Source of the DNA: Hyaloraphidium curvatum SAG 235-1
Taxonomy: Eukaryota; Fungi; Monoblepharomycota
DNA length: 64,000 nucleotides
Assembly (NCBI GenBank): GCA_025558095.1
Contig: JAIVFI010000037.1
Coordinates: 248,001-312,000 of the forward strand
Reading direction: 5' to 3'
The notes under the pieces were generated by a model that worked only from the letters and a program-made list of their open reading frames with translations, was not told the origin of the DNA and made no database searches. Position 1 is the stretch's first letter, and the number at the start of each line of letters is the position of its first letter. Positions 20,456-55,946 of this stretch are shown here, piece after piece. The translations under genes were made by a program, and so were the position numbers.

Positions 20456-21493
20456 ATGGAGCTCCAGAACGAGGAAGGGGCGGAGAACGTGAAAGTGCGG
20501 ACTGCAGGATGCCGGCGAGGGAGCCATTGCTGACGGCGGCTGCGTCCGGAAACCTCTCCCGGCTTCCACGCCCACCCGCCCCACCGCCGCCCTCTCCTGC
20601 CCTCCGATCCCTCGGCCGCGCTTCTGCCTCGTACCTGCATTCCATCTGGATAGCTGTTCGGCAAATGGTCGTATGAAGATGTGAAGGCCTCGGACATCTC
20701 GCTCGAGGTGGGCCCGCCCTCGCGCCTCGGCTCCGCGCCGCTGACCCGTCCCTCGCATGCTTGCTCTCTCTCTGGAATCGCTTTTTTGCCCTCCGTGTGC
20801 GGTGCGCGCCACCAGGACTACATCCAAATCCGGCACCGCGTCTACATCCCGCACACCGCGGGGCGGTACCAGATGCGGCGGTTCAGGAAGGCCCAGGTGC
20901 GGCCCGCGCGCCGGAGGAGCGTAGCGTGCACTGATGCGCTGGGTCACCGCAGTGCCCCATCGTCGAGCGCCTGGCCAACTCGCTCATGATGCACGGCCGC
21001 AACAACGGCAAGAAGCTCATGGCGAACCGGATCGTCAAGCACACCTTCGAGATCATCCACCTCCTCACGGACCAGAACCCCATCCAGATCCTCGTGGACG
21101 CCATCATCAACACCGGCCCGCGCGAGGACTCGACCCGCATCGGGAGCGCCGGTACCGTGAGGCGGCAGGCCGTCGACGTGTCGCCGCTGCGGAGGGTCAA
21201 CCAGGCCATCTGGCTGCTGACGACGGGCGTAAGTTGCCGTTGTGGGGTTTGCGTGTGTGCGGAGGAGCCAACACCGGTCGGTCGCCAGGCTCGTGAGGCT
21301 GCGTTCAGGAACGTCAAGACCATTGCCGAGTGCCTGGCGGACGAGCTCATCAACGCGGCCAAGGGGTCCTCCAACTCGTACGCCATCAAGAAGAAGGACG
21401 AGCTGGAGCGTGTCGGTGCGTTGCCGCCAAATGTCTCCGCCAAGGGACGGGAACTGACTGCCGTTCCGGTTTCCAGCGAAATCCAACCGGTAA
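20456..21493 (+). CDS. RPS5: 40S ribosomal protein uS7 (S5)
   Basis: [79 protein letters not shown]; 5 introns. Confidence 0.97.
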
Positions 21494-24019: not shown

Positions 24020-26840
24020 ATGCTGAGCACCGAAGGCGCGGCACTCGCGCCGCGATTCACGCGGAAAGCGAAGCTGCCAGAAGCGCGACAAACGAGGCCG
24101 GCCGATGACGGCGTGCCGCTCCCCGTCCGGCTCGCGAAGCTGAAGGTACCCGAGTCCCTGGTTCCGCGCTCTCGCCGCTCCAACTCCCCGGAACGGCAGC
24201 GGCTCGTCCACGAGACCATTATTGCACATCGGAAGGACTTTCTGACGGCGTTTCAGTACTGCTCAAACCTGGTGCAGGACGTGGAAGCGGCATTCGGGAC
24301 CGTGGATGTGGGACTCGCCGAGGTCCTCAAACCGCGATGAATGTGAACCATTCGTGGGATTCCTGCAGGCTCAGGATGAAGAGAGAATACCGGGCGATCT
24401 TGTCGGGGAGATCCAGTCGCTCCGAGTCCTCGCGCAGGTGCGGGGACGGTGTCCGCGCGATGGACCCACTCTTGACGACGCGTGGGACAGCTGCACCACA
24501 CGTTGCAGAACTTTGACAGTCTCTTGGAGATTGGAGAATTCAAGATGGCCGCCGCAGCCGTCGTGCAGATGGTGGGTCCGGCGTTCGTGGCCAAGACCAG
24601 TCCACCAACACTCTCTGGCGGAAGATGGATCTTTTCGAGCAGCTCGTCGATGCCAACGGCTTGCGGTGCGACTTCAACATCTATCAGCTGCTGAAGAACG
24701 ACTACGCTGCAAAACGCGCCCGCCTCACCCAGTATCTGAACGAGATGTTCGCCGCGGGCATTTCCATCCACCAAGAGGGTTCAAGCGCAGAAGTCCAAGT
24801 CTCCTTCCGCCTCGTCGGTGAGCAAGGACTCGACCTTATCTTTTCCACTCAGCGCTGAACGAGTCGTCCGTACAGGGCCGCATGCCAAGAAGTACTACGA
24901 ATCGTCGATCCCCCTCGAAGACGTCCTGAGCGCCCTTTACCACCTCGAAACCCTGGAAGCAAAGTTCCAAACTGTAGCCACGCGTCTGACTCAGCTGTGC
25001 ATCGCTCCGTGCATTTCAAGTGCGAAGCTGGACATTCAATGTTCCAAGAGCAAGCTGCAGGCCGTCTTGAAGCTTCAAGGCGGCGCCAGAAAGTCCAGGG
25101 GACCAGGCCAATCTCCAGGTGGGTCAAGCTTCGCTCGTGCTATGCTGAATTAATCCTGTCTGGTGCTGCAGCTTTGGACCAGGTCCTCGACCGAATTCTC
25201 CAAATTTGCAGGTTCGTGTCCGAGGACGTCTTCCCAGCACCACCACCCAGCGACGGGCATTTTCCGACTGAAACACTGCTTGACGTCTTTGGCCGGACCT
25301 GGTGGCCATCACTGTGGAGCTCCGTGAACGAAAACGTCCTGACGCCGTTGGTGCCCGAGGACGTCCTTTCATTGAAGCACTTTCAAGAGGAGCTGAGGCC
25401 AAAAGTCCTCGAATTTGGGAACGCTTTGGAACAACTAGGTGGCTTGCCTCTCGCGCCGGGGTTCAATTCGACCCATTGATTCTCCGACCAGGGGTGCTTC
25501 CCGCCGGCAGGCGTGAGCTGGACGACTTTGTGGAGAACATCGCGGCTCTGAGCACCGCGAAACGGCGCGCATCGATCCTTGCGACTGCACGATCCGTCCT
25601 GCTCAACGAAGACATAAATATGGTGGAGGTCAGCGACGCAACAGAAAGAGGTGAGATCCCTACGTGTGCGCAACGCTCCGGTTCGCAGCTAAAGCAGAGG
25701 TCCGCAGGCGGCGTATTCAACCTGAATGGAGGCAAGAAGGACCCGGGCTTTGATCAGGCGAGAGGCAAGGAGGGCGCCGAGGGCAAGGCCGGCCTGGAAT
25801 CGGGAGAAGTCGACGCATTCAAGGTGCCTCGATGTTCCGTGTCATCACAAGTCCACGCAGTGGTCGAGATGGCGTATCAGATGGTAAACGAAGCCACCTC
25901 CAGCGATTCCAAAGCGTGGGTTTTGCTTGAGCATAGCCCTGTCGCGCGGGACGGCGGACCCTTAACGTTCATCGTTCTGCTGCCCTGCCTGCCAGTGCGA
26001 TCGAGCTGTTCTACTGCGCTCGCGACCTCTTCGACCTCATGCGCTGCGTTCGGCCGATGTGCCACGCGGACCCGGCGACGGCGACGATCGCAAGCACTCT
26101 CCTCTTCCACAACGATTGCCTCTACGTCTCCCATCACCTCCTCACGATCGGCTACCAGTACAAAAGCCAGCTGCCGCCCCCGCTCAATGAGACCGCAACC
26201 TTTGTCGACATGATTCCGTCTTTTCGGAAGCTCGGGGAGACGGCCCTGCGTGGACTCTTGGTACGTGGATCGAGAAAGTGCATCTCGTCGGGCTGACAGC
26301 AGTCCAGCGCAACCACAGGGACTACATCTTGGAGTGCTTGGTGGATGCCGATCTCCTGCGGGAGCTTCAAGTGCAGGAGCGATTCGAGAAGGCGGAAAGG
26401 TGCTTCAAGGACGTGATTGCGAAGATCGAAACCCTGTCCCGTTCCGCCAAGGTGACTCCTTCGCACGACCGTGCAGTTCCGTGCTGATCGTGCTATGCGC
26501 AGAACATCCTTCCGAGCGAGCTGTACTTGAGCGTGATCGGGCAGCTCGTCGACACGGTTGTCGAGCAGGTGCTCCTGATGGTTCCCCAACTGGACACGAC
26601 TTCGTGGCAAAACTCGTTTCAGGTCAAGTACATCCTCAACCTCGCCGCGGTTCGGATCGAACGCTGGTTCGAGATCTCGAGGAGGGAGGGGAACAAGACG
26701 ATCACGGAAAAGGTTGGGGACCTAGTTCCCGAACGCTTCTGCCTCGCCTGACAGGGTTTTGATGATTGCAGGCCCCCATCTCGAAACGAGTTGCGTCTTG
26801 GGAGCGCTTTTCGCGCCTCGTCGGCGCTCCCCCCGCGTGA
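24020..26840 (+). CDS. ZW10: Centromere/kinetochore protein ZW10 (Dsl1 family), multi-exon; C-terminus appears truncated
   Basis: FKVPRCSVS, LFYCARDLFDL, LLFHNDCLYVSHHLLTIGYQY, TFVDMIPSFRKLG, ILPSELYLSVIGQLVD; ends ...SWERFSRLVGAPPA* at the edge of the Fanzor element. Confidence 0.85.
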
Positions 26841-28255
26841 GGTGGGGTCGGAATATATAGTGCTCCGTTATTAGAAACCCGCACTCTCTAAGCGTCCCAC
26901 GCTACAGCTAAAGTCCTCGTTCTCTCTGTCGCTAACTCGGCACTACAGCGTCTAACATCGTGCTCCGCCATCTTGACGTCCTGATTGTGTCCATTTTTTG
27001 AGCTGGCGGATGGCCCCAGCATTCGGTCGCCGTCTCGCTGCATCGGTCCCCAACGTCCGTGCGCAGCTTAATGCTTCGTTGTCATGCACAGAGGGATTTT
27101 ACAGTCCGGAGACGTTCCGAGGTGGCAGAGGCCGGATTTGTAGCGCGTTCGCGAGGAAGAGGTGCGAACGCAGACCGCGGTCCCGAACAGCACAGCACGT
27201 CACCCCTCCGACCCGCTACAGCTCGTGATGGCGCACCGGGATACGGTGGAGAACAGCGCTGGCCGCCAGTAGTCTCTTACGCGATTCCTGGCTCCACCAA
27301 ACGTCGTGGGATGGCCGTACGGGCCGCTCCGCGTGGACCGCCCCAAGACGAGTAGTACTGCCGAGCGAACCCCGACCTGCAAACTCATCCCGCTGAAATG
27401 GCACCTAGGCGGCGCCAGGAGCATCTCGGAAGGCGATGCCGACGGCGCGGCTCCGTTTTGCGCCCGATCGTCGTCGCTACGACGACCGAAGTGCCGCGGT
27501 TGTGTCGAACCGCTGCGCTCCCGTTTCGCGACGTGCCATCGCAGGCATTCCACAGAAAGATGGCCGAGCTCCCAGAATTGCACGTCGGAAACGACTCGAA
27601 GGGGATCTCGGCCGCTCAGACGCCGATTCTGGGGAACCCGCACCGCATCGGTTGGGCGCTTAACCGTGTCGCCCCGCCGGAGCACTGGAAGCAATGGAGG
27701 TCCGGTGGCCGCGGTCTTTCCTCTTTTCCAGCTCAAACGATGATCCGCTTCGTCCGCTGGTGCTTGGAACCGAGATTGACAACCGCCGGCGAGAGGACGA
27801 AGCGGCAAAGGTCTGCCGCTGAATGCCCACGGGAGGCCCGGTCGCGGCAGGTGCAGTTGCAGGAAGAGCGAAAGCGAGCACGAGTCATTTCGCGTGAAAT
27901 CTAGGGCCCTCGACGGAGTGGGGCGACAGGCCTTTCGGAAACCGGGGGTCGGGAGCCCGAAGGCCCGAGCGGGGCGGAGTCGCCGACACCCCTGGTCAAA
28001 TGGCTGGTTAAATTGCTGGGCAAATAGGAAATGCCCGTTGCGGCAGACCGCCATGAAGCCGATAGGAAACGGAAACTGGGAAGGGCTTTTGGGCGCGTGA
28101 GACGTGGCCTTGGGTTTAGCGCCGTGTCGGAACGCAACGCGCCGCCGCGCGGCAGCGGCATGGCCGGGCACCAGGTACACTTTTGCACTCCCGTGGACAC
28201 CGCGTCGGACATTTTGGGCCAGTAGCGGCGACCGCGGCGCCGTGGCCGGCCCGCG

Positions 28256-31200
28256 ATGGCCGCGCACGCGGCTGCGTGGGCCAATTTCCTACCCGTACTG
28301 CCTTTGCCGTGGAGCGTACTGTGGAACAATCGGATTCACGGCCGCGATGTCGACATCACGCGGCCGCCGGCGGTGCAGTTCGCCATCTGGAACAACATGC
28401 CTGGGGTCGCTGTTGAAGCCGACGCCTTCAACCTCCCGGCGAACCTGGCCAGGTTCTGCCCAGTTCACGGCAACGCTTGTCCAGCTCCGCAGCAGCTTGC
28501 AGTCGGTCAGATGGTCCAGTTTGTGCAGGGTATTCCGTTCTGCAATTGTAAGTATGAGCCGCCTGCTACCCGACATACGGATCTCTCACACCCAGCGCTC
28601 GCAAGCCGCTTTCCACCAAGGCTTCGAACCGGCATTGGACGTGTTCCTTGGAACCTGCCCAGTCGCCCAACTTCGATGTGAGCAACTTCCGCATTTCCAC
28701 AATGCGCTTGCGGGGGCTTTTGGCTTTATCCTTCGTTTCTACGACGCGACCGCGACGATCCCGGAGCGGCACGTATCGGTGAGTGCGATTTGTGCCGTGT
28801 TTTTCTTGAGTCTGACGCCTCTGCGCAGCATGCACGATACGGCGTGGCGTTGGTCTTTGTCCCCCTCAGCTCTCTTCGTCCGACAACCCTTGTGGCCGCT
28901 GATGTCCCCGACGCATGGATCGAGAGGCCGACGACGGACGTGGTTTTCGACGGGATCCAGGCGTTCTACGGGCGTGCCACCATCTGGGACGACAACATGA
29001 TCTACGGCAACGCCCCGAACAAGACTTGCGTTGACTGCTCCCGCCGTGGCCACCCGAGCAAAGCCTCGTTCTACTGCGAGCAACATAACCCCCGTGCATT
29101 GAATGGCATCAAGGCCTTCGAATGGGATCACGAGGGTGGGCTATACTGGTACCGACCGTACGTCGTGAAGACGAGTTTGGACGCTTTCTGCCGGCATGAG
29201 CCGCTCCGTGGGCTTTTCAAGACCATTTCGGCTGCTACAACCATGGTTTGCTTTGAAGGAGCCCTCTTCCTGCAGTTGTTTTTGTCGCTCTACCCGTTGC
29301 GGTCCGCGGATGCAACCGGGATGTGGGAACCGATCGTGGACCTGAATTTGTCGGATTCCCAAATCCAGAACCTGTTCAAGGCGTTCTATTTCCCGTCGGA
29401 CGATGGCTACGGCAGGGTTTTACAGCTCCTAGACCGTTTCCATCCCCTAGCGCGCGAGGTATTTGTTCAGCACTACCTACCATGCCGGAAAGGAAGGGCG
29501 ACCTGGCCCGGGGACTGGCCTGCAGCCCGCGCGGTCTGCGACAACTTTGACTCTCTGCCAAATCAAGTTGCTGCCAACGTTCGCACGCAGTTCGTGGGCG
29601 CCTGGAAACGCCACGTCGTGTACAACATCGGGGACTGGACCGTGTGGTGGATCAAGGAGCGGCTCAAGGAGCGGATCACGGCTGCTGCGCAGTGGCCAGC
29701 GTGGATGCTTGGCAAGCTGGCCTGGGGCATGTACAACTACTTCACGCTGGGCCGCTCGGACAACCTGGACATCTTCGAAAGGCGCAAGGCGGAACGAAGA
29801 GCAGCAGCTGCTTCGCGGAGGGAGGGAAGAGCACCTGCCGAAGCGGCGGTCCCGGCCGACCACCCGTTCGAGCTACCGACTTTCCGGGCGGAAGATGCCT
29901 GTGGATGGCCACCGTCCACGCTCAACGTGGCGAACCGAATCATTGCTGAGCTGCGCCGGAAGTTTGGACCCGTCGATTGGAGCAAGACGGAGACGGGCGG
30001 CCTGATCTGCAAGGATAACGCCTTCATCGGCAACTACATCCGCTGGCTTAGGTACCTTTCGCTTGCGCGCGAGGAGGCCAACGCGAAGCAGTTTGCGCTT
30101 GTCCCGCTCTACGACTGGTCCAACAAGTTCGTCCTCGTCGATACGATGGTGCTGTATTGGTGCCTCAGGATCGTGGAAGATAGGGTTGGTGGTCTGTGCG
30201 GGACCAAACTGCTTTCTTTTCTGACGCCTAGCTCTACACCGCAAACAGCTCCGTGCATCGGAACAACCCCCGCCGGCGGACCTGAAGCTGCCCAAGACCC
30301 CGGCAGTCTTCTTCGCCGACCACGAGAATCTGCACAACTGGCACCTGTATCTGTTCAACGTCGACGGAGTCTTCCGCAACAAGAGCCCCGAAGCCCGGCG
30401 CAAGCGGAACCGGCGCCGCAAGGAGCAGCGGAGGCGGAGAAAAGCGCAGGAGGCGCAGAGCGGGCAGCGGTTTCAACACAAGCGGGGAGGGTGGAAGCGC
30501 GTGAAGAAGAAGAAGGTGGGCGACGGATCTCCGGATTTCGCCGTACTGGCAACCCATGAGAACTGCTTCCGCAGTCAAAGTCTCGGCCAATACCAGGCGA
30601 TCTCCGCGATTCCAGTTCGATACCCGAGTCCGAGATACCCCAAACAACACCTCCTCCGCCCCCCTTCCCCAAGCCAAAATCCATAGTCTTCGACGGGTCG
30701 TTCGTGGTCAACAACAGCGACGTCTCGATCCAGCTGCACAAGCGGAAGAGAACGTCCGCAACGTCGGACAGGAGCGCTTTCGAGGGTGCCGATGAGGGCT
30801 TCACGCGGGACCCGAACGGGCGCAGCAAGCGCACCGGCACGGGTGCGTGGGTCGGGGACGTGGACAGAATACCGGATCAGGTCAAGGAGAACTTCGACGT
30901 CTTCCCGGACCACACCATCGTCGCGGCGATCGACTTCGGCTGGAAGAATGTAGCAACGTGGGGCTGGACGACGCTGGGCAAGATCAGGGCCGCCGGCAAT
31001 CTCCATGTCTACGACAAGAACCCTCTGGACAACCCGCTACTGTACGACGTGGAGGAGGTCGTTGCAGTCGAGGTGGACGGCGTCGTCATGGACCCCGAGG
31101 GAAGGCCGCTGCTGGCGGCCGACGTCGAGCAGAGAGCGATGTTTGGCGGCACGACGGTCTGGGTCGACGACCCGATGCTCATGGACACGGGTGTCGTCGG

Positions 31201-32081
31201 GATGGACCGCGCAAACATGCCCTGGGTCGCGGACGACGTCGAGGAGAAGGTGGTGGACGGGTGCAAGGTCTACTACCGGAAGGTGAACAAGGGCAACGTC
31301 AAGCTCACCTTTGGCAAGGTCACGGCCGGCAACATCAAAAGGCATACGGGCGCTGCGCGCCGAGAGAAGGAGACCGCCGAGAAGGTCGAGCAGGTCTTTG
31401 GTCGGAAAGACCCCTTCGCCAACCTCGGTTCTCCGCGCACCTGCGTTGTCTCGGAGCTCGAGGAGCACCTGCGCAAGGTGTTCGAAAAGCTGGACCGTGT
31501 TTGGAAAGTGACGCTCGACCCTGATATCGTCAAGCTGCGATTCAAGAGCTACATCGACAAGCAGCGGTTCTACCAGAATACGCTCCCGGCCTGGGTGGTG
31601 GGAGGCAAGGAGAACCTGCGCAAGCCCATCCTCCTGTACCCTGGTGCGGCGAGCCTCGTCTTCAAGAACCAGCGCGGCAACATGCCCGCCTCTGTTCGCA
31701 AGTGTCGCCGCGGCATCGCCCACCGCCTCAACCCCGGCATGTGGCAGTTTGCCATGGACACGGGCGAGGAGTACACCTCTCAAGTGCACGCAGCGGCACA
31801 CTCGTGGGACCACCCCGAGCGATCGCTCGTCTGCATCAACCACGCCGAGGACAGTCCCGGCAAGCGCCCACGCGACCTCCAACGTTGCCAAGGAACAACG
31901 TGTGCGTAACGGTTTCCTTCTGCGCGAGGGGTGAAGCTCACGATCCCCTATAGATTGCTGTGGAGGGCACGTGGCCCGGGACAAGAACTCGGTGAAGGAC
32001 ATCATGAGCGTGGGGCTCAGCAACGTCGTCTTCGGTAAGCGGCCCACGATCTTTACCTACGAATACTGGCGAAACCGTTGA
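28256..32081 (+). CDS. Fanzor1 (eukaryotic TnpB homologue) RNA-guided RuvC endonuclease, spliced
   Basis: Introns 28779-28828, 30185-30248, 30516-30574 and 31902-31953 join one frame of about 1025 aa from 28829. It contains CVDCSRRGHPSKASFYC, VVKTSLDAFCR, FALVPL, FDGSFVVNNSDVSI, RuvC-I AAIDFGW (D 30932), RuvC-II GEEYTSQ (E 31766), RuvC-III RDKNS (D 31980) and C-terminal GKRPTIF. Exons upstream of 28779 are uncertain. Confidence 0.85.
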
Positions 32082-32165
32082 AGACAGTAGCCAGAAAACT
32101 AGTAGCGGCGTCGAACCTGCGGAGTGCGGGTTTCTGATGTAGCCGCACGAGGAAAATCCTTTAGA
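32050..32165 (+). ncRNA. Putative Fanzor omegaRNA scaffold and guide
   Basis: Lies between the Fanzor 3' end and the element right end, where omegaRNAs are encoded. Possible stems: CAGAAA(32092)/TTTCTG(32131), GTGCGG(32124)/CCGCAC(32143), AGGA/TCCT(32150-32160). Positional inference only. Confidence 0.5.
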
Positions 32166-32222
32166 CCTTCCTTTCCGTGGCGCCAAACTTCGTCCGTGCC
32201 CTGACCGCGTATCCTGGGCGCC

Positions 32223-32885
32223 ATGTCTGAAGAACCTGAGGACCCGAAGCCCCAGCTGGTCGAGGAGTGTGAGTAGGGGGTCAACGGAGGCACACGGGCT
32301 CGGTCAGGGATGTGTGCAGCGTCGCCGTGGCGTCGACGTCTCTGCTTCCCACGGACCTGGGGACATCTTGCCCGCTGTTGACGACAATTATGGGCGCTCA
32401 ATTGTGCTGGAGTCTCTGCGATTGGCGCCGGCACCTTCGGACGGGAGGATGGCGGATGGCGTTGGGTCTCGGAGGCATTCGAACTCAACCGTGGGTCCGA
32501 TCCGCCAGGCAAGGAGTCGGACCACTGCAAGCACCTCCAACACGTCTATGAGCACTGCGCGGAGAGGTGGGCTCGTCCGGAAGCCGCGATGGACGGGCTC
32601 GGAGCCTGATTCGGACTGGTCGGACACGCAGGATCGAGAAGGAGGGAGGCGAGCAGAACTGCGTGCTGGAGTTCTTTGACCTCTTGGAGTGCATAGTACG
32701 TGATGGTGCTCGATGACTACTCGTTCTCTCTAACCCGCGGTCGCGCGTCCCCCTAGGATCACTGCGTTGGGTGAGTAGGGTCAGGTAACTCAGGGTAACG
32801 TCTCTGACCGCGGTCCACATGCTACCTCCTGGTGGGAATCTTGCTATCGACTTCTAGGCCGAAGCTGTTCAAGCAGCTGGTGTAA
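32223..32885 (+). CDS. QCR6: Cytochrome bc1 complex hinge protein (subunit 6)
   Basis: Spliced: MSEEPEDPKPQLVEEC KESDHCKHLQHVYEHCAERIEKEGGEQNCVLEFFDLLECI DHCVG PKLFKQLV*; 5 small exons, absent from the ORF track. Confidence 0.92.
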
Positions 32886-55248: not shown

Positions 55249-55423
55249 TGTCAGGACAGGCCTTGGAGATGGCCTAGTCATGGGTTGGTTAGGGAGAGCA
55301 TATGGGGGCAGCCCAAACACCATGTACCCCCACTGCTTCTCACTGTGTACATAGACATCCCGCTGCCTCGATGCTGTGCAGTCCCCGCTAGGCAGGGCCC
55401 AGCTGGCCCCTGGGTTCCTGACA
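55249..55423. mobile_element. Solo LTR (175 bp)
   Basis: TG...CA termini with 8-bp inverted ends TGTCAGGA/TCCTGACA; flanked by ACGTC/ACGTT (5-bp TSD, one mismatch); interrupts the LINE ORF. Confidence 0.8.
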
Positions 55424-55774
55424 ACGTTCCTCCGGTGTTTCTCCACCCGGATCAGCGACGGTGCAATGTGACCAAAGGTCATGTCACACATCCTCCAGAA
55501 GTGCAGCTTGTCGTTGTCCTTGAGCTTCTGGGCATTGATCTCCCTGAACTTGCCCTTCACAAGATTCTCCACAGTCTCCTTGGCCCATGAAAAAGTGTCC
55601 TTCTCCCACATCTCCCTCCACTCCTCTCCACCATAGTACACAAGTAGTTCCCTCAGGAAGGCAGCCCAGTTCCAGCACCCCTTCAGTGCCTCGATCTTGA
55701 GCTCCTTGTAGAGCAGGTACAATGCAGGGTCAGCTGTTTTGATACGCATGAGGAACTTGAGAGCCGACTCATGG

Positions 55775-55946
55775 TGTCAGGAACCCAGGGGCCAGCTGGG
55801 CCCTAGCGGGGACTGCACAGCATCGAGGCGGCGGGATGTCTATGTACACAGTGAGAAGCAGTGGGGGTACATGGTATTTGGGCCGCCCCCATATGCTCTC
55901 CCTAACCAACCCATGACTAGGCCATCTCCCAAGGCCCGTCCTGACA
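55775..55946. mobile_element. Solo LTR (172 bp), inverted relative to 55249-55423
   Basis: Reverse-complement match to the first LTR with the same termini; no TSD; flanks come from LINE positions about 0.8 kb apart. Confidence 0.8.

What the first reader, a model, noticed from the sequence alone, without database searches (positions are those of the whole stretch)
26826..32165. Element ends: asymmetric 17-bp inverted repeat plus hairpins (Helitron2-like) and candidate omegaRNA
Seen: ATTAGAAACCCGCACTC (26870-86) matches the reverse complement of 32122-38 at 16/17. The left copy lies about 25-45 bp inside a GC hairpin (26831-47). On the minus strand the right copy starts A|TC and can pair with CAGAAA at 32092. 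No TSD and no transposase were found. Short motifs TGTAGC, ACGAGGA and CTTTAG at 32138-32165 also recur inverted at 26901-26920, so the right end could be about 32137 or about 32165. Established: Helitron2 elements have short asymmetric terminal inverted repeats with hairpins, make no TSD, and can carry Fanzor1. Inference: a non-autonomous element whose right end encodes the omegaRNA, with the guide drawn from the QCR6 upstream flank.
Basis: partly seen in the sequence, partly recalled or inferred. Interest (0 to 1): 0.78.

Follow-up and report, generated by a model that had tools for sequence, protein, structure and literature searches.

The report
Expressed Fanzor transposon with symmetric ends
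A 5.3-kb mobile element in an early-branching fungus carries an intact, spliced gene for a likely RNA-guided nuclease (Fanzor), and its right end, shared with related copies, likely encodes the guide RNA; its ends look symmetric rather than Helitron2-like, so it is probably a new example of a known kind of element.

Summary
The 17-bp inverted repeat is real, but it is the core of a longer imperfect repeat. Contigs of related copies match the right end up to 32148, not 32137 or 32165 (2 of 2 informative records shown). Mirroring 32148 puts the left end at 26860: both ends begin GTGC and match at 21/27. The only TATATA in the 64-kb window ends at 26859. The left end itself was not mapped directly. 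An RNA-type contig splices five introns into an intact 1180-aa ORF with D-E-D RuvC-type residues; its relatives hit Pfam Cas12f1-like_TNB weakly. The stretch 32066-32148 folds into two stems ending two bases before the end. Contigs with other upstream sequence ('ghost'-like copies) share 72 nt of it, as in the Spu-1 elements of Spizellomyces. Best reading: a non-autonomous Fanzor1 element with terminal inverted repeats, omegaRNA at the right end, guide from 32149 in the QCR6 upstream flank, TA-rich TAM. Helitron2 membership fails on the 5' T and the T-rich target. No target-site duplication was found and the transposase is unknown. The neighbouring ZW10 gene appears to lack its last ~40 codons.

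The parts
26772..26840 (+). Last expressed exon of host ZW10, ending in a stop at 26838-40.
   Evidence: Pfam ZW10_C and Zw10_middle upstream. ZW10_C2 profile 19-65 of 152 on the previous exon, E 0.047. An RNA-type contig enters at 26770 and runs on to 27171. Translation.
26854..26859 (.). TATATA directly before the inferred left end; candidate target site and TAM, and a possible former TATA box
   Evidence: Only occurrence in 64 kb; TATA occurs 20 times. The role is inferred.
26860..26886 (+). Inferred left terminal inverted repeat, 27 bp, beginning GTGC, with the 17-bp core at 26870-26886
   Evidence: 21/27 identical to the reverse complement of 32122-32148. The end is inferred by mirroring the mapped right end. 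A related contig reaches left to about 26864 (derived from from_end values).
26887..27698 (+). Left non-coding region shared with diverged related copies
   Evidence: Many substitutions and indels from other contigs in X1, X2 and X3; loose ends at 27020, 27389 and 27698.
28256..32081 (+). Fanzor-like gene, 1180 aa, six exons (28256-28547, 28606-28778, 28829-30184, 30249-30515, 30575-31901, 31954-32081); candidate catalytic residues D816, E1094, D1148
   Evidence: Five GT-AG joints in one 4189-nt contig of run X2. Open frame. Residues 212-1180 are the annotated 969-aa protein P0001. Relatives P0002 and P0003 (E 1.9e-58 and 7.5e-53) hit Cas12f1-like_TNB at E 0.0038 and 0.00015, below the curated cutoff. 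Atlas neighbours score 0.95 and 0.98.
32066..32148 (+). Predicted omegaRNA scaffold: stem 32066-32094 and long stem 32105-32146. The stretch 32077-32148 is shared with copies that differ upstream.
   Evidence: Fold z -2.2 for 32060-32148, a window chosen after seeing the data; z -0.8 for 32077-32148. Shared block.
32122..32148 (-). Right terminal inverted repeat; the element ends at 32148
   Evidence: X2 record 13 matches 32097-32148 without a difference and has 3947 further letters that do not lie on the window. X3 record 15 matches 32077-32148 with 2 differences and ends at 32148.
32149..32163 (+). Predicted guide segment (host flank, about 15 nt), lying just upstream of the QCR6 transcript
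   Evidence: Inferred from the mapped end and the 14-15 nt guides reported in PMC10432273. Not observed.
32183..32268 (+). Host QCR6: transcript contig begins at 32183, ATG at 32223
   Evidence: X2 record 14; first intron joint at 32268; Pfam UCR_hinge on later exons, E 0.0012 and 0.0065.

Best explanation
A non-autonomous mobile element ending at 32148 and likely starting at 26860 carries an intact spliced gene for a likely Fanzor1 nuclease between imperfect 27-bp inverted ends, and its right end is predicted to be the omegaRNA scaffold with the guide read from the flank at 32149 onward. Shown: the spliced open frame, the shared ends in other copies, the right boundary. Inferred: a transposase encoded elsewhere, most likely a cut-and-paste type recognising the GTGC tip and the inner 17-bp site, moves it into TA-rich sites. 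Transcripts running through the right end would be trimmed to an RNA of about 85-100 nt that loads into the Fanzor. The complex would cut empty sites (TA-rich TAM plus guide match) and so help the element be restored by repair. Shorter copies without the gene would supply more guide RNAs. The missing TSD and the short ZW10 are most simply explained by loss of host DNA next to one end of this copy.
For: The right boundary was fixed from contigs. Its mirror image then falls on GTGC (chance about 0.006 from base composition), directly behind the window's only TATATA. Fanzor1 TAMs are 4-5 nt and AT-rich (PMC13565253 section 15). The shared 72-nt block from the stop codon to the end, in contigs with unrelated upstream letters, parallels the 75-nt block of Spu-1 ghosts (PMC10432273 section 7). 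Three of the six positions where the right repeat departs from the left one are paired in the predicted RNA stem; a perfect mirror folds at -14.3 instead of -21.2 kcal/mol. TIRs forming part of Fanzor1 scaffolds is reported (PMC10711439 passages). The ORF is intact and spliced. Diverged paralogs exist in the same species (P0005, P0007).
Against: The left end is inferred, not mapped. No TSD, although DDE elements make one (PMC13565253 section 20). By eye against recalled ZW10 sequences, similarity stops near 26822-26826, which would also fit a left end there. The right boundary rests on two records, and the flank letters of X2 record 13 were among the rows not shown. X1 and X3 are one sample and may be the assembly source. 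P0001 itself has no TnpB/Fanzor Pfam hit, lacks the first zinc-finger cysteine of its relatives, and its atlas recognition score (2255) is below the 2300 mark. The 72-nt shared block alone folds no better than shuffles (z -0.8). Nuclease activity and a small RNA were not observed.
Confidence: 0.62

Rival explanations
1. Helitron2/Helentron-like element read on the minus strand: 5' end at 32148 with a hairpin made from the repeat itself, the other repeat lying 30-45 bp inside a 3' end near 26823-26830, upstream of the 26831-47 hairpin; moved by a Rep/helicase in trans without a TSD.
For: No TSD. The minus-strand terminus folds a 6-bp hairpin (-5.8 kcal/mol). The spacing from repeat to 26826 (44 bp) fits the 38-60 bp given for Helentron derivatives (PMC4067079 passages). 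ZW10 similarity seems to stop near 26822-26826 (by eye, recalled sequences). Fanzor1 in Helitron2 is known (PMC3627910 section 8).
Against: The 5' base would be G, not T. The 17-bp core is 10 bp, not 0-4 bp, from that end, and the 27-bp repeat is longer than the 8-17 bp described. The target is not TT or TTTT: the base next to the mapped end is C on this strand. The hairpin is better on the plus strand and covers a host stop codon. The TAM would be GC-rich.
Confidence: 0.2
2. Helitron2-like element on the plus strand, as in Chlamydomonas CRe-1: 5' end at a T near 26868-26871 with a small hairpin (TTAGA/TCTAA), 3' end at 32148.
For: A 5' T and a repeat 0-2 bp from that end; same gene orientation as CRe-1; no TSD.
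Against: The GTGC mirror and the unique TATATA at 26854-59 would both be coincidences. No separate hairpin lies between the repeat and 32148, and the right flank begins with G. The 5' hairpin is not the lowest-energy fold.
Confidence: 0.08
3. Symmetric-ended element that natively makes no TSD (tyrosine- or serine-recombinase-like, or an unclassified transposase) and inserts precisely behind TATA motifs; the empty site is simply the left flank joined to the right flank.
For: Placing the two flanks side by side puts the window's only TATATA 34 nt upstream of where the QCR6 transcript contig begins, a plausible TATA-box distance (established knowledge). Joined ends would form a palindrome between two 17-bp arms.
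Against: One locus only. It leaves the short ZW10, and the lack of room for its 3' UTR, unexplained. The contig start is not a mapped transcription start.
Confidence: 0.1

Closest known systems
Spu-1 / SpuFz1 and ghost Spu-1 elements of Spizellomyces punctatus (Saito et al. 2023, PMC10432273; section 7 and passages read, supplements searched for four terms)
   Same: Fanzor gene alone between inverted repeats of about 30 bp; a block of about 75 nt from the stop codon through the right repeat, shared with gene-less copies; TA-rich left flank; no transposase inside.
   Different: 1180 aa and five introns against 633 aa in one ORF. Repeats are bipartite (GTGC tip, variable spacer, 17-bp core). No TA duplication in this copy. 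No sequence similarity to solved Fanzor chains was detected.
Helitron2-borne Fanzor1 CRe-1/2/3 of Chlamydomonas (Bao and Jurka 2013, PMC3627910, sections 7, 8, 10, 12 and passages of section 9; Jiang et al. 2023, PMC10530073, section 10 and passages)
   Same: Intron-containing Fanzor1 in a non-autonomous element; short inverted repeat near both ends; hairpins; omegaRNA 3' of the gene.
   Different: Helitron2 starts with T, has the 5' repeat 0-2 bp from its end and the 3' repeat 20-30 bp from its end before a hairpin, and inserts after TTTT. Here the mapped end is G/C, the core is 10 bp from it, and the adjacent flank is not T.
Unassigned TIR elements with Fanzor1 (ascovirus SFav-1/HVav-1 type; PMC3627910 section 12, PMC10711439 passages)
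   Same: Non-autonomous, Fanzor only, transposase family unknown, TIR forms part of the RNA scaffold, RNA abundant.
   Different: Those have 13-bp TIRs and 4-bp TSDs; none is seen here.

Membership tests
Fanzor (TnpB-like) | RuvC D ... E-x-x-[TS]-[TS] ... RD motif (Bao and Jurka motif; glutamate just before the zinc finger) | tested here: met
   D816, E1094 (EEYTS) and D1148 (RD), conserved in P0002 and P0003. Spacing from D to TS is about 280, just over the stated 275, owing to an insertion of about 70 aa.
Fanzor (TnpB-like) | C4 zinc finger / TNB domain | tested here: inconclusive
   Relatives hit Cas12f1-like_TNB below the curated cutoff (E 0.0038 and 0.00015); P0001 does not and has His where they have the first Cys.
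Fanzor (TnpB-like) | Fanzor fold | tested here: inconclusive
   Both models have low confidence (pLDDT 38.0 and 41.6), so the fold searches are uninformative. Language-model neighbours carry DUF8286 and Cas12f1-like_TNB.
Fanzor (TnpB-like) | omegaRNA at the right end extending into the flank; RNA-guided cleavage | not testable with these tools
   Only contigs were available. A conserved, transcribed block ends at 32148; no small-RNA reads and no assay.
Fanzor1 (versus Fanzor2) | Phylogenetic placement, large REC, no IS607 recombinase | not tested
   No tree was built. Size, introns and atlas neighbours point to Fanzor1 (inference).
Helitron2/HLE2 | 5' terminal T | tested here: not met
   With the mapped end at 32148 the minus-strand start is G; the mirrored plus-strand start is G. 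It would be met only if the left end were at 26868-71, which is unmapped.
Helitron2/HLE2 | Asymmetric short repeats (5' copy 0-4 bp from its end; 3' copy 20-60 bp from its end, before a hairpin) | tested here: inconclusive
   The core lies 10 bp from the mapped right end, and the mirror symmetry suggests the same on the left, but the left end is not mapped.
Helitron2/HLE2 | Insertion into TT or after TTTT | tested here: not met
   The flank next to the mapped end begins GAGG. Caveat: this flank may not be the original one if host DNA was lost.
Helitron2/HLE2 | No TSD | tested here: met
   No match longer than 2 bp at any of four end pairs.
Helitron2/HLE2 | Rep/helicase partner with the same ends | not testable with these tools
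   No whole genome is held for this window; none in the window's 103 long frames.
DDE cut-and-paste TIR transposon | [quoted passage not shown] | tested here: inconclusive
   21/27 match reaching the mapped right end; the left end is inferred.
DDE cut-and-paste TIR transposon | Target-site duplication | tested here: not met
   None in this copy. Flanks of other copies could not be read, so no superfamily is assigned.

The most novel reading that the evidence does not exclude
A Fanzor-carrying transposon family with GTGC...GCAC ends and an unidentified transposase inserts without a target duplication directly behind host TATA boxes. Its TAM is the TATA box, its guides are core-promoter sequence, and its copies borrow strong host promoters to mass-produce guide RNA, which would make it an RNA-guided, promoter-targeting selfish element.
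Probability: 0.1. Interest if true: 0.72.

Novelty: new member of a known kind. Interest (0 to 1): 0.42.

Why it matters
It adds a large (1180 aa), intron-containing, apparently well-expressed Fanzor with an intact catalytic triad. The omegaRNA scaffold, guide start and TAM are now defined well enough for a direct biochemical test. It corrects the element's class and its guide position. If the other copies also lack a TSD and follow TATA motifs, the family would have an insertion rule not described for Fanzor elements in the papers I read. The insertion also sits in the apparent 3' end of ZW10 and 34 nt upstream of the QCR6 transcript, so it may have changed two housekeeping genes.

Tried and rejected
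No whole genome is held for this window, so copies could not be aligned genome-wide. The search for related loci with alignment A1 found no relative among 251 metagenome and 66 viral candidate stretches. A degenerate end pattern found 0 matches in metagenome and viral contigs. No run is on record as RNA; X2 is a guess, supported only by its GT-AG joints. X2 has no cover at 32149-32182; a hole in contigs is no evidence of a transcript end. Contig depths (17198 for a ghost-type contig, 1969 for the gene contig) are a poor measure of expression and are not used to rank. Structure predictions were too poor to use; Foldseek and VIA-align gave nothing meaningful. Sequence searches of solved structures with A1 and A4 gave no hit at E below 0.9; those with two ZW10 exons also gave nothing. 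Rfam gave no match better than E 2.7. The bacterial promoter and terminator scan is not relevant and found nothing. The N-terminal exon had no usable atlas hit. P0008 (E 1e-8, a bacterial repeat protein) was judged spurious and left out of A3-A5. The missing ZW10 C-terminus was not found in 32 of 34 stop-free pieces scanned around both ends (two short terminal pieces were left out). Rejected: right ends at 32137 and 32165; the three inverted short motifs as end signals; a Replitron-type direct repeat (CCGCAC recurs inside the left repeat, but only as a result of the hairpin geometry); 2-4 bp TSDs at shifted ends (chance level). No good self-target for the guide in the window (best other site 4 mismatches in 16). 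Four look-ups of earlier findings by place or sequence returned nothing.
Full report
Setting. The window is eukaryotic and about 60% GC. A protein encoded inside the finding is held in NCBI as a hypothetical protein of Hyaloraphidium curvatum, a monoblepharid fungus (taxonomy recalled). No whole genome is held, so evidence on other copies comes from assembled contigs of three public runs, two samples in all.

The observation. Alone it is modest: 26 of 300 shuffles of the 5.9-kb region contain such a match. The hairpin at 26831-47 folds at -4.9 kcal/mol but overlaps the stop codon of the upstream ZW10 gene. The three short motifs recur as described, but contigs of related copies change two of them. 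No TSD longer than 2 bp exists for any of four candidate end pairs, and none of the 103 frames of at least 190 aa in the window hits a transposase family.

The gene inside. One 4189-nt contig of run X2 skips five GT-AG introns. Splicing them gives an uninterrupted 1180-aa frame from 28256 to 32081; the annotated 969-aa protein is its C-terminal part. It has D816, E1094 and D1148 in the arrangement that Bao and Jurka give for Fanzors. Its closest outside relatives are 38-41% identical over the aligned part, keep these residues, and hit Pfam Cas12f1-like_TNB below the cutoff; the protein itself does not. Language-model neighbours are giant-virus and Mucoromycota clusters carrying DUF8286 and that domain. 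Two diverged paralogs come from the same species; P0005 has Gly at the catalytic Glu position. Folding failed. I call it a likely Fanzor1; activity is untested.

Copies and the right end. Diverged contigs cover about 26864-27698 and the right end, but mostly not the gene in between. Laying the runs on 31860-32260 placed 28 records, of which 15 were listed. Several begin to match at 32073-32077, at the stop codon, with unrelated letters upstream, as gene-less or different-gene copies would. Two listed records that are not this locus reach past 32137, and both stop at 32148. X2 record 13 is identical over 32097-32148 and has 3947 more letters that do not lie on the window; I read its orientation from X1 record 2, whose loose-end lengths fix the convention, and the flank letters themselves were not shown. 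X3 record 15 ends exactly at 32148. None of the listed records from other loci reaches 32165. Against a uniform picture: one related locus leaves the window at 32111 and a close paralog at 32083, and the remaining short records end at 32112-32126, probably graph branch points.

The left end. Mirroring 32148 along the repeat gives 26860. There the sequence begins GTGC, as the right end does on its own strand (chance about 0.006), and the two 27-mers match at 21 positions. The only TATATA in 64 kb ends at 26859. A related contig reaches left to about 26864, derived from the from_end values; whether its first letters match was not displayed. So the left end is inferred. One fact points the other way: ZW10 similarity seems to stop near 26822-26826 (by eye against recalled sequences). 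The last two exons cover only about positions 19-110 of the 152-position ZW10_C2 profile (weak hit), and no remainder was found nearby. The ZW10 transcript contig runs on into the element.

The RNA. The stretch 32060-32148 folds into a stem at 32066-32094 and a long stem at 32105-32146, two bases before the end (z -2.2, window chosen after the fact; the 72-nt shared block alone gives z -0.8). SpuFz1 and PpFz1 RNAs also have two stems before the guide (PMC11423790 passages). Three of the six differences between the right and left repeats are paired in the long stem, and a perfect mirror folds 7 kcal/mol worse. This suggests the right repeat has adapted to serve as RNA. The guide would start at 32149, in the 34 nt before the QCR6 transcript contig begins. 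No small RNA was seen; contigs cannot show one.

How it most likely works (0.62). Shown: spliced intact gene, shared ends, right boundary. Inferred: a transposase encoded elsewhere binds the bipartite ends and inserts the element at TA-rich sites; the right end yields an omegaRNA; the Fanzor cuts empty sites and favours restoration of the element, as proposed for OMEGA systems (PMC13565253 section 20); gene-less copies add guides. Loss of host DNA beside one end would account for both the missing TSD and the short ZW10. Rivals: a minus-strand Helitron2-like element ending near 26826 (0.2), a plus-strand Helitron2 (0.08), and a natively TSD-less element landing behind TATA boxes (0.1).

Comparison. 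It works like Spu-1 and its ghosts (PMC10432273 section 7). It should not be filed as Helitron2: the 5' T and the T-rich target (PMC3627910; PMC11417382 passages; PMC5148889 passages; PMC4067079 passages) were tested and not met, asymmetry is doubtful, and no Rep/helicase partner could be sought. It cannot be filed under a DDE superfamily either, since no TSD is present. Replitron ends are direct repeats (PMC10288648 passages) and do not fit.

Novelty. Full-text searches found no paper with both Hyaloraphidium and Fanzor, and two unrelated listings for the species name plus transposon. The supplement of PMC10711439 lists three H. curvatum Fanzor HMM hits (two were shown), but not this protein's accession. 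The supplements of PMC10432273 and PMC10530073 do not name the genus (one scanned file could not be searched). Repbase and subscription journals were not searchable. Verdict: a new member of a known kind, with a corrected end and class, and two open oddities (no TSD, TATA-like landing site). Interest 0.42.

Noticed in passing
window:26772-26859: ZW10 seems to lack about 40 C-terminal residues, and its transcript contig reads into the element to at least 27171; host DNA may have been lost at this insertion.
   Followed up: partly
window:28256-28996: The spliced frame is open for 211 codons upstream of the annotated start, across two introns. This N-terminal extension has no Pfam hit, and its first exon has no atlas hit.
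   Followed up: partly
window:31037-31290: An insertion of about 70 aa after the first RuvC motif, shared with paralog P0005 but absent from P0002 and P0003; reminiscent in position of RuvC insertions in other Fanzor1 proteins.
   Followed up: no
window:23368-23733: Partial second copy (84-98% identical) of the 5' part of the ribosomal protein S5 gene at 20528-20892, broken off before the rest of the gene, upstream of ZW10.
   Followed up: no
window:54800-64000: Head-to-tail array of near-identical reverse-transcriptase (RVT_1) segments on the minus strand, with spacings of 2011 and 1431 bp and a 128-bp inverted repeat at 55265-55929; LINE-like tandem array or assembly artefact.
   Followed up: no
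window:32073-32111: One related locus (X1 record 2, X2 record 10) keeps a Fanzor 3' remnant and the first 39 nt of the shared block, then diverges before the long stem; another close paralog diverges two bases after the stop codon. The family may have more than one kind of right end.
   Followed up: no
window:26756: One DNA contig (X1) has an extra T in the ZW10 intron relative to the window; X3 does not.
   Followed up: no
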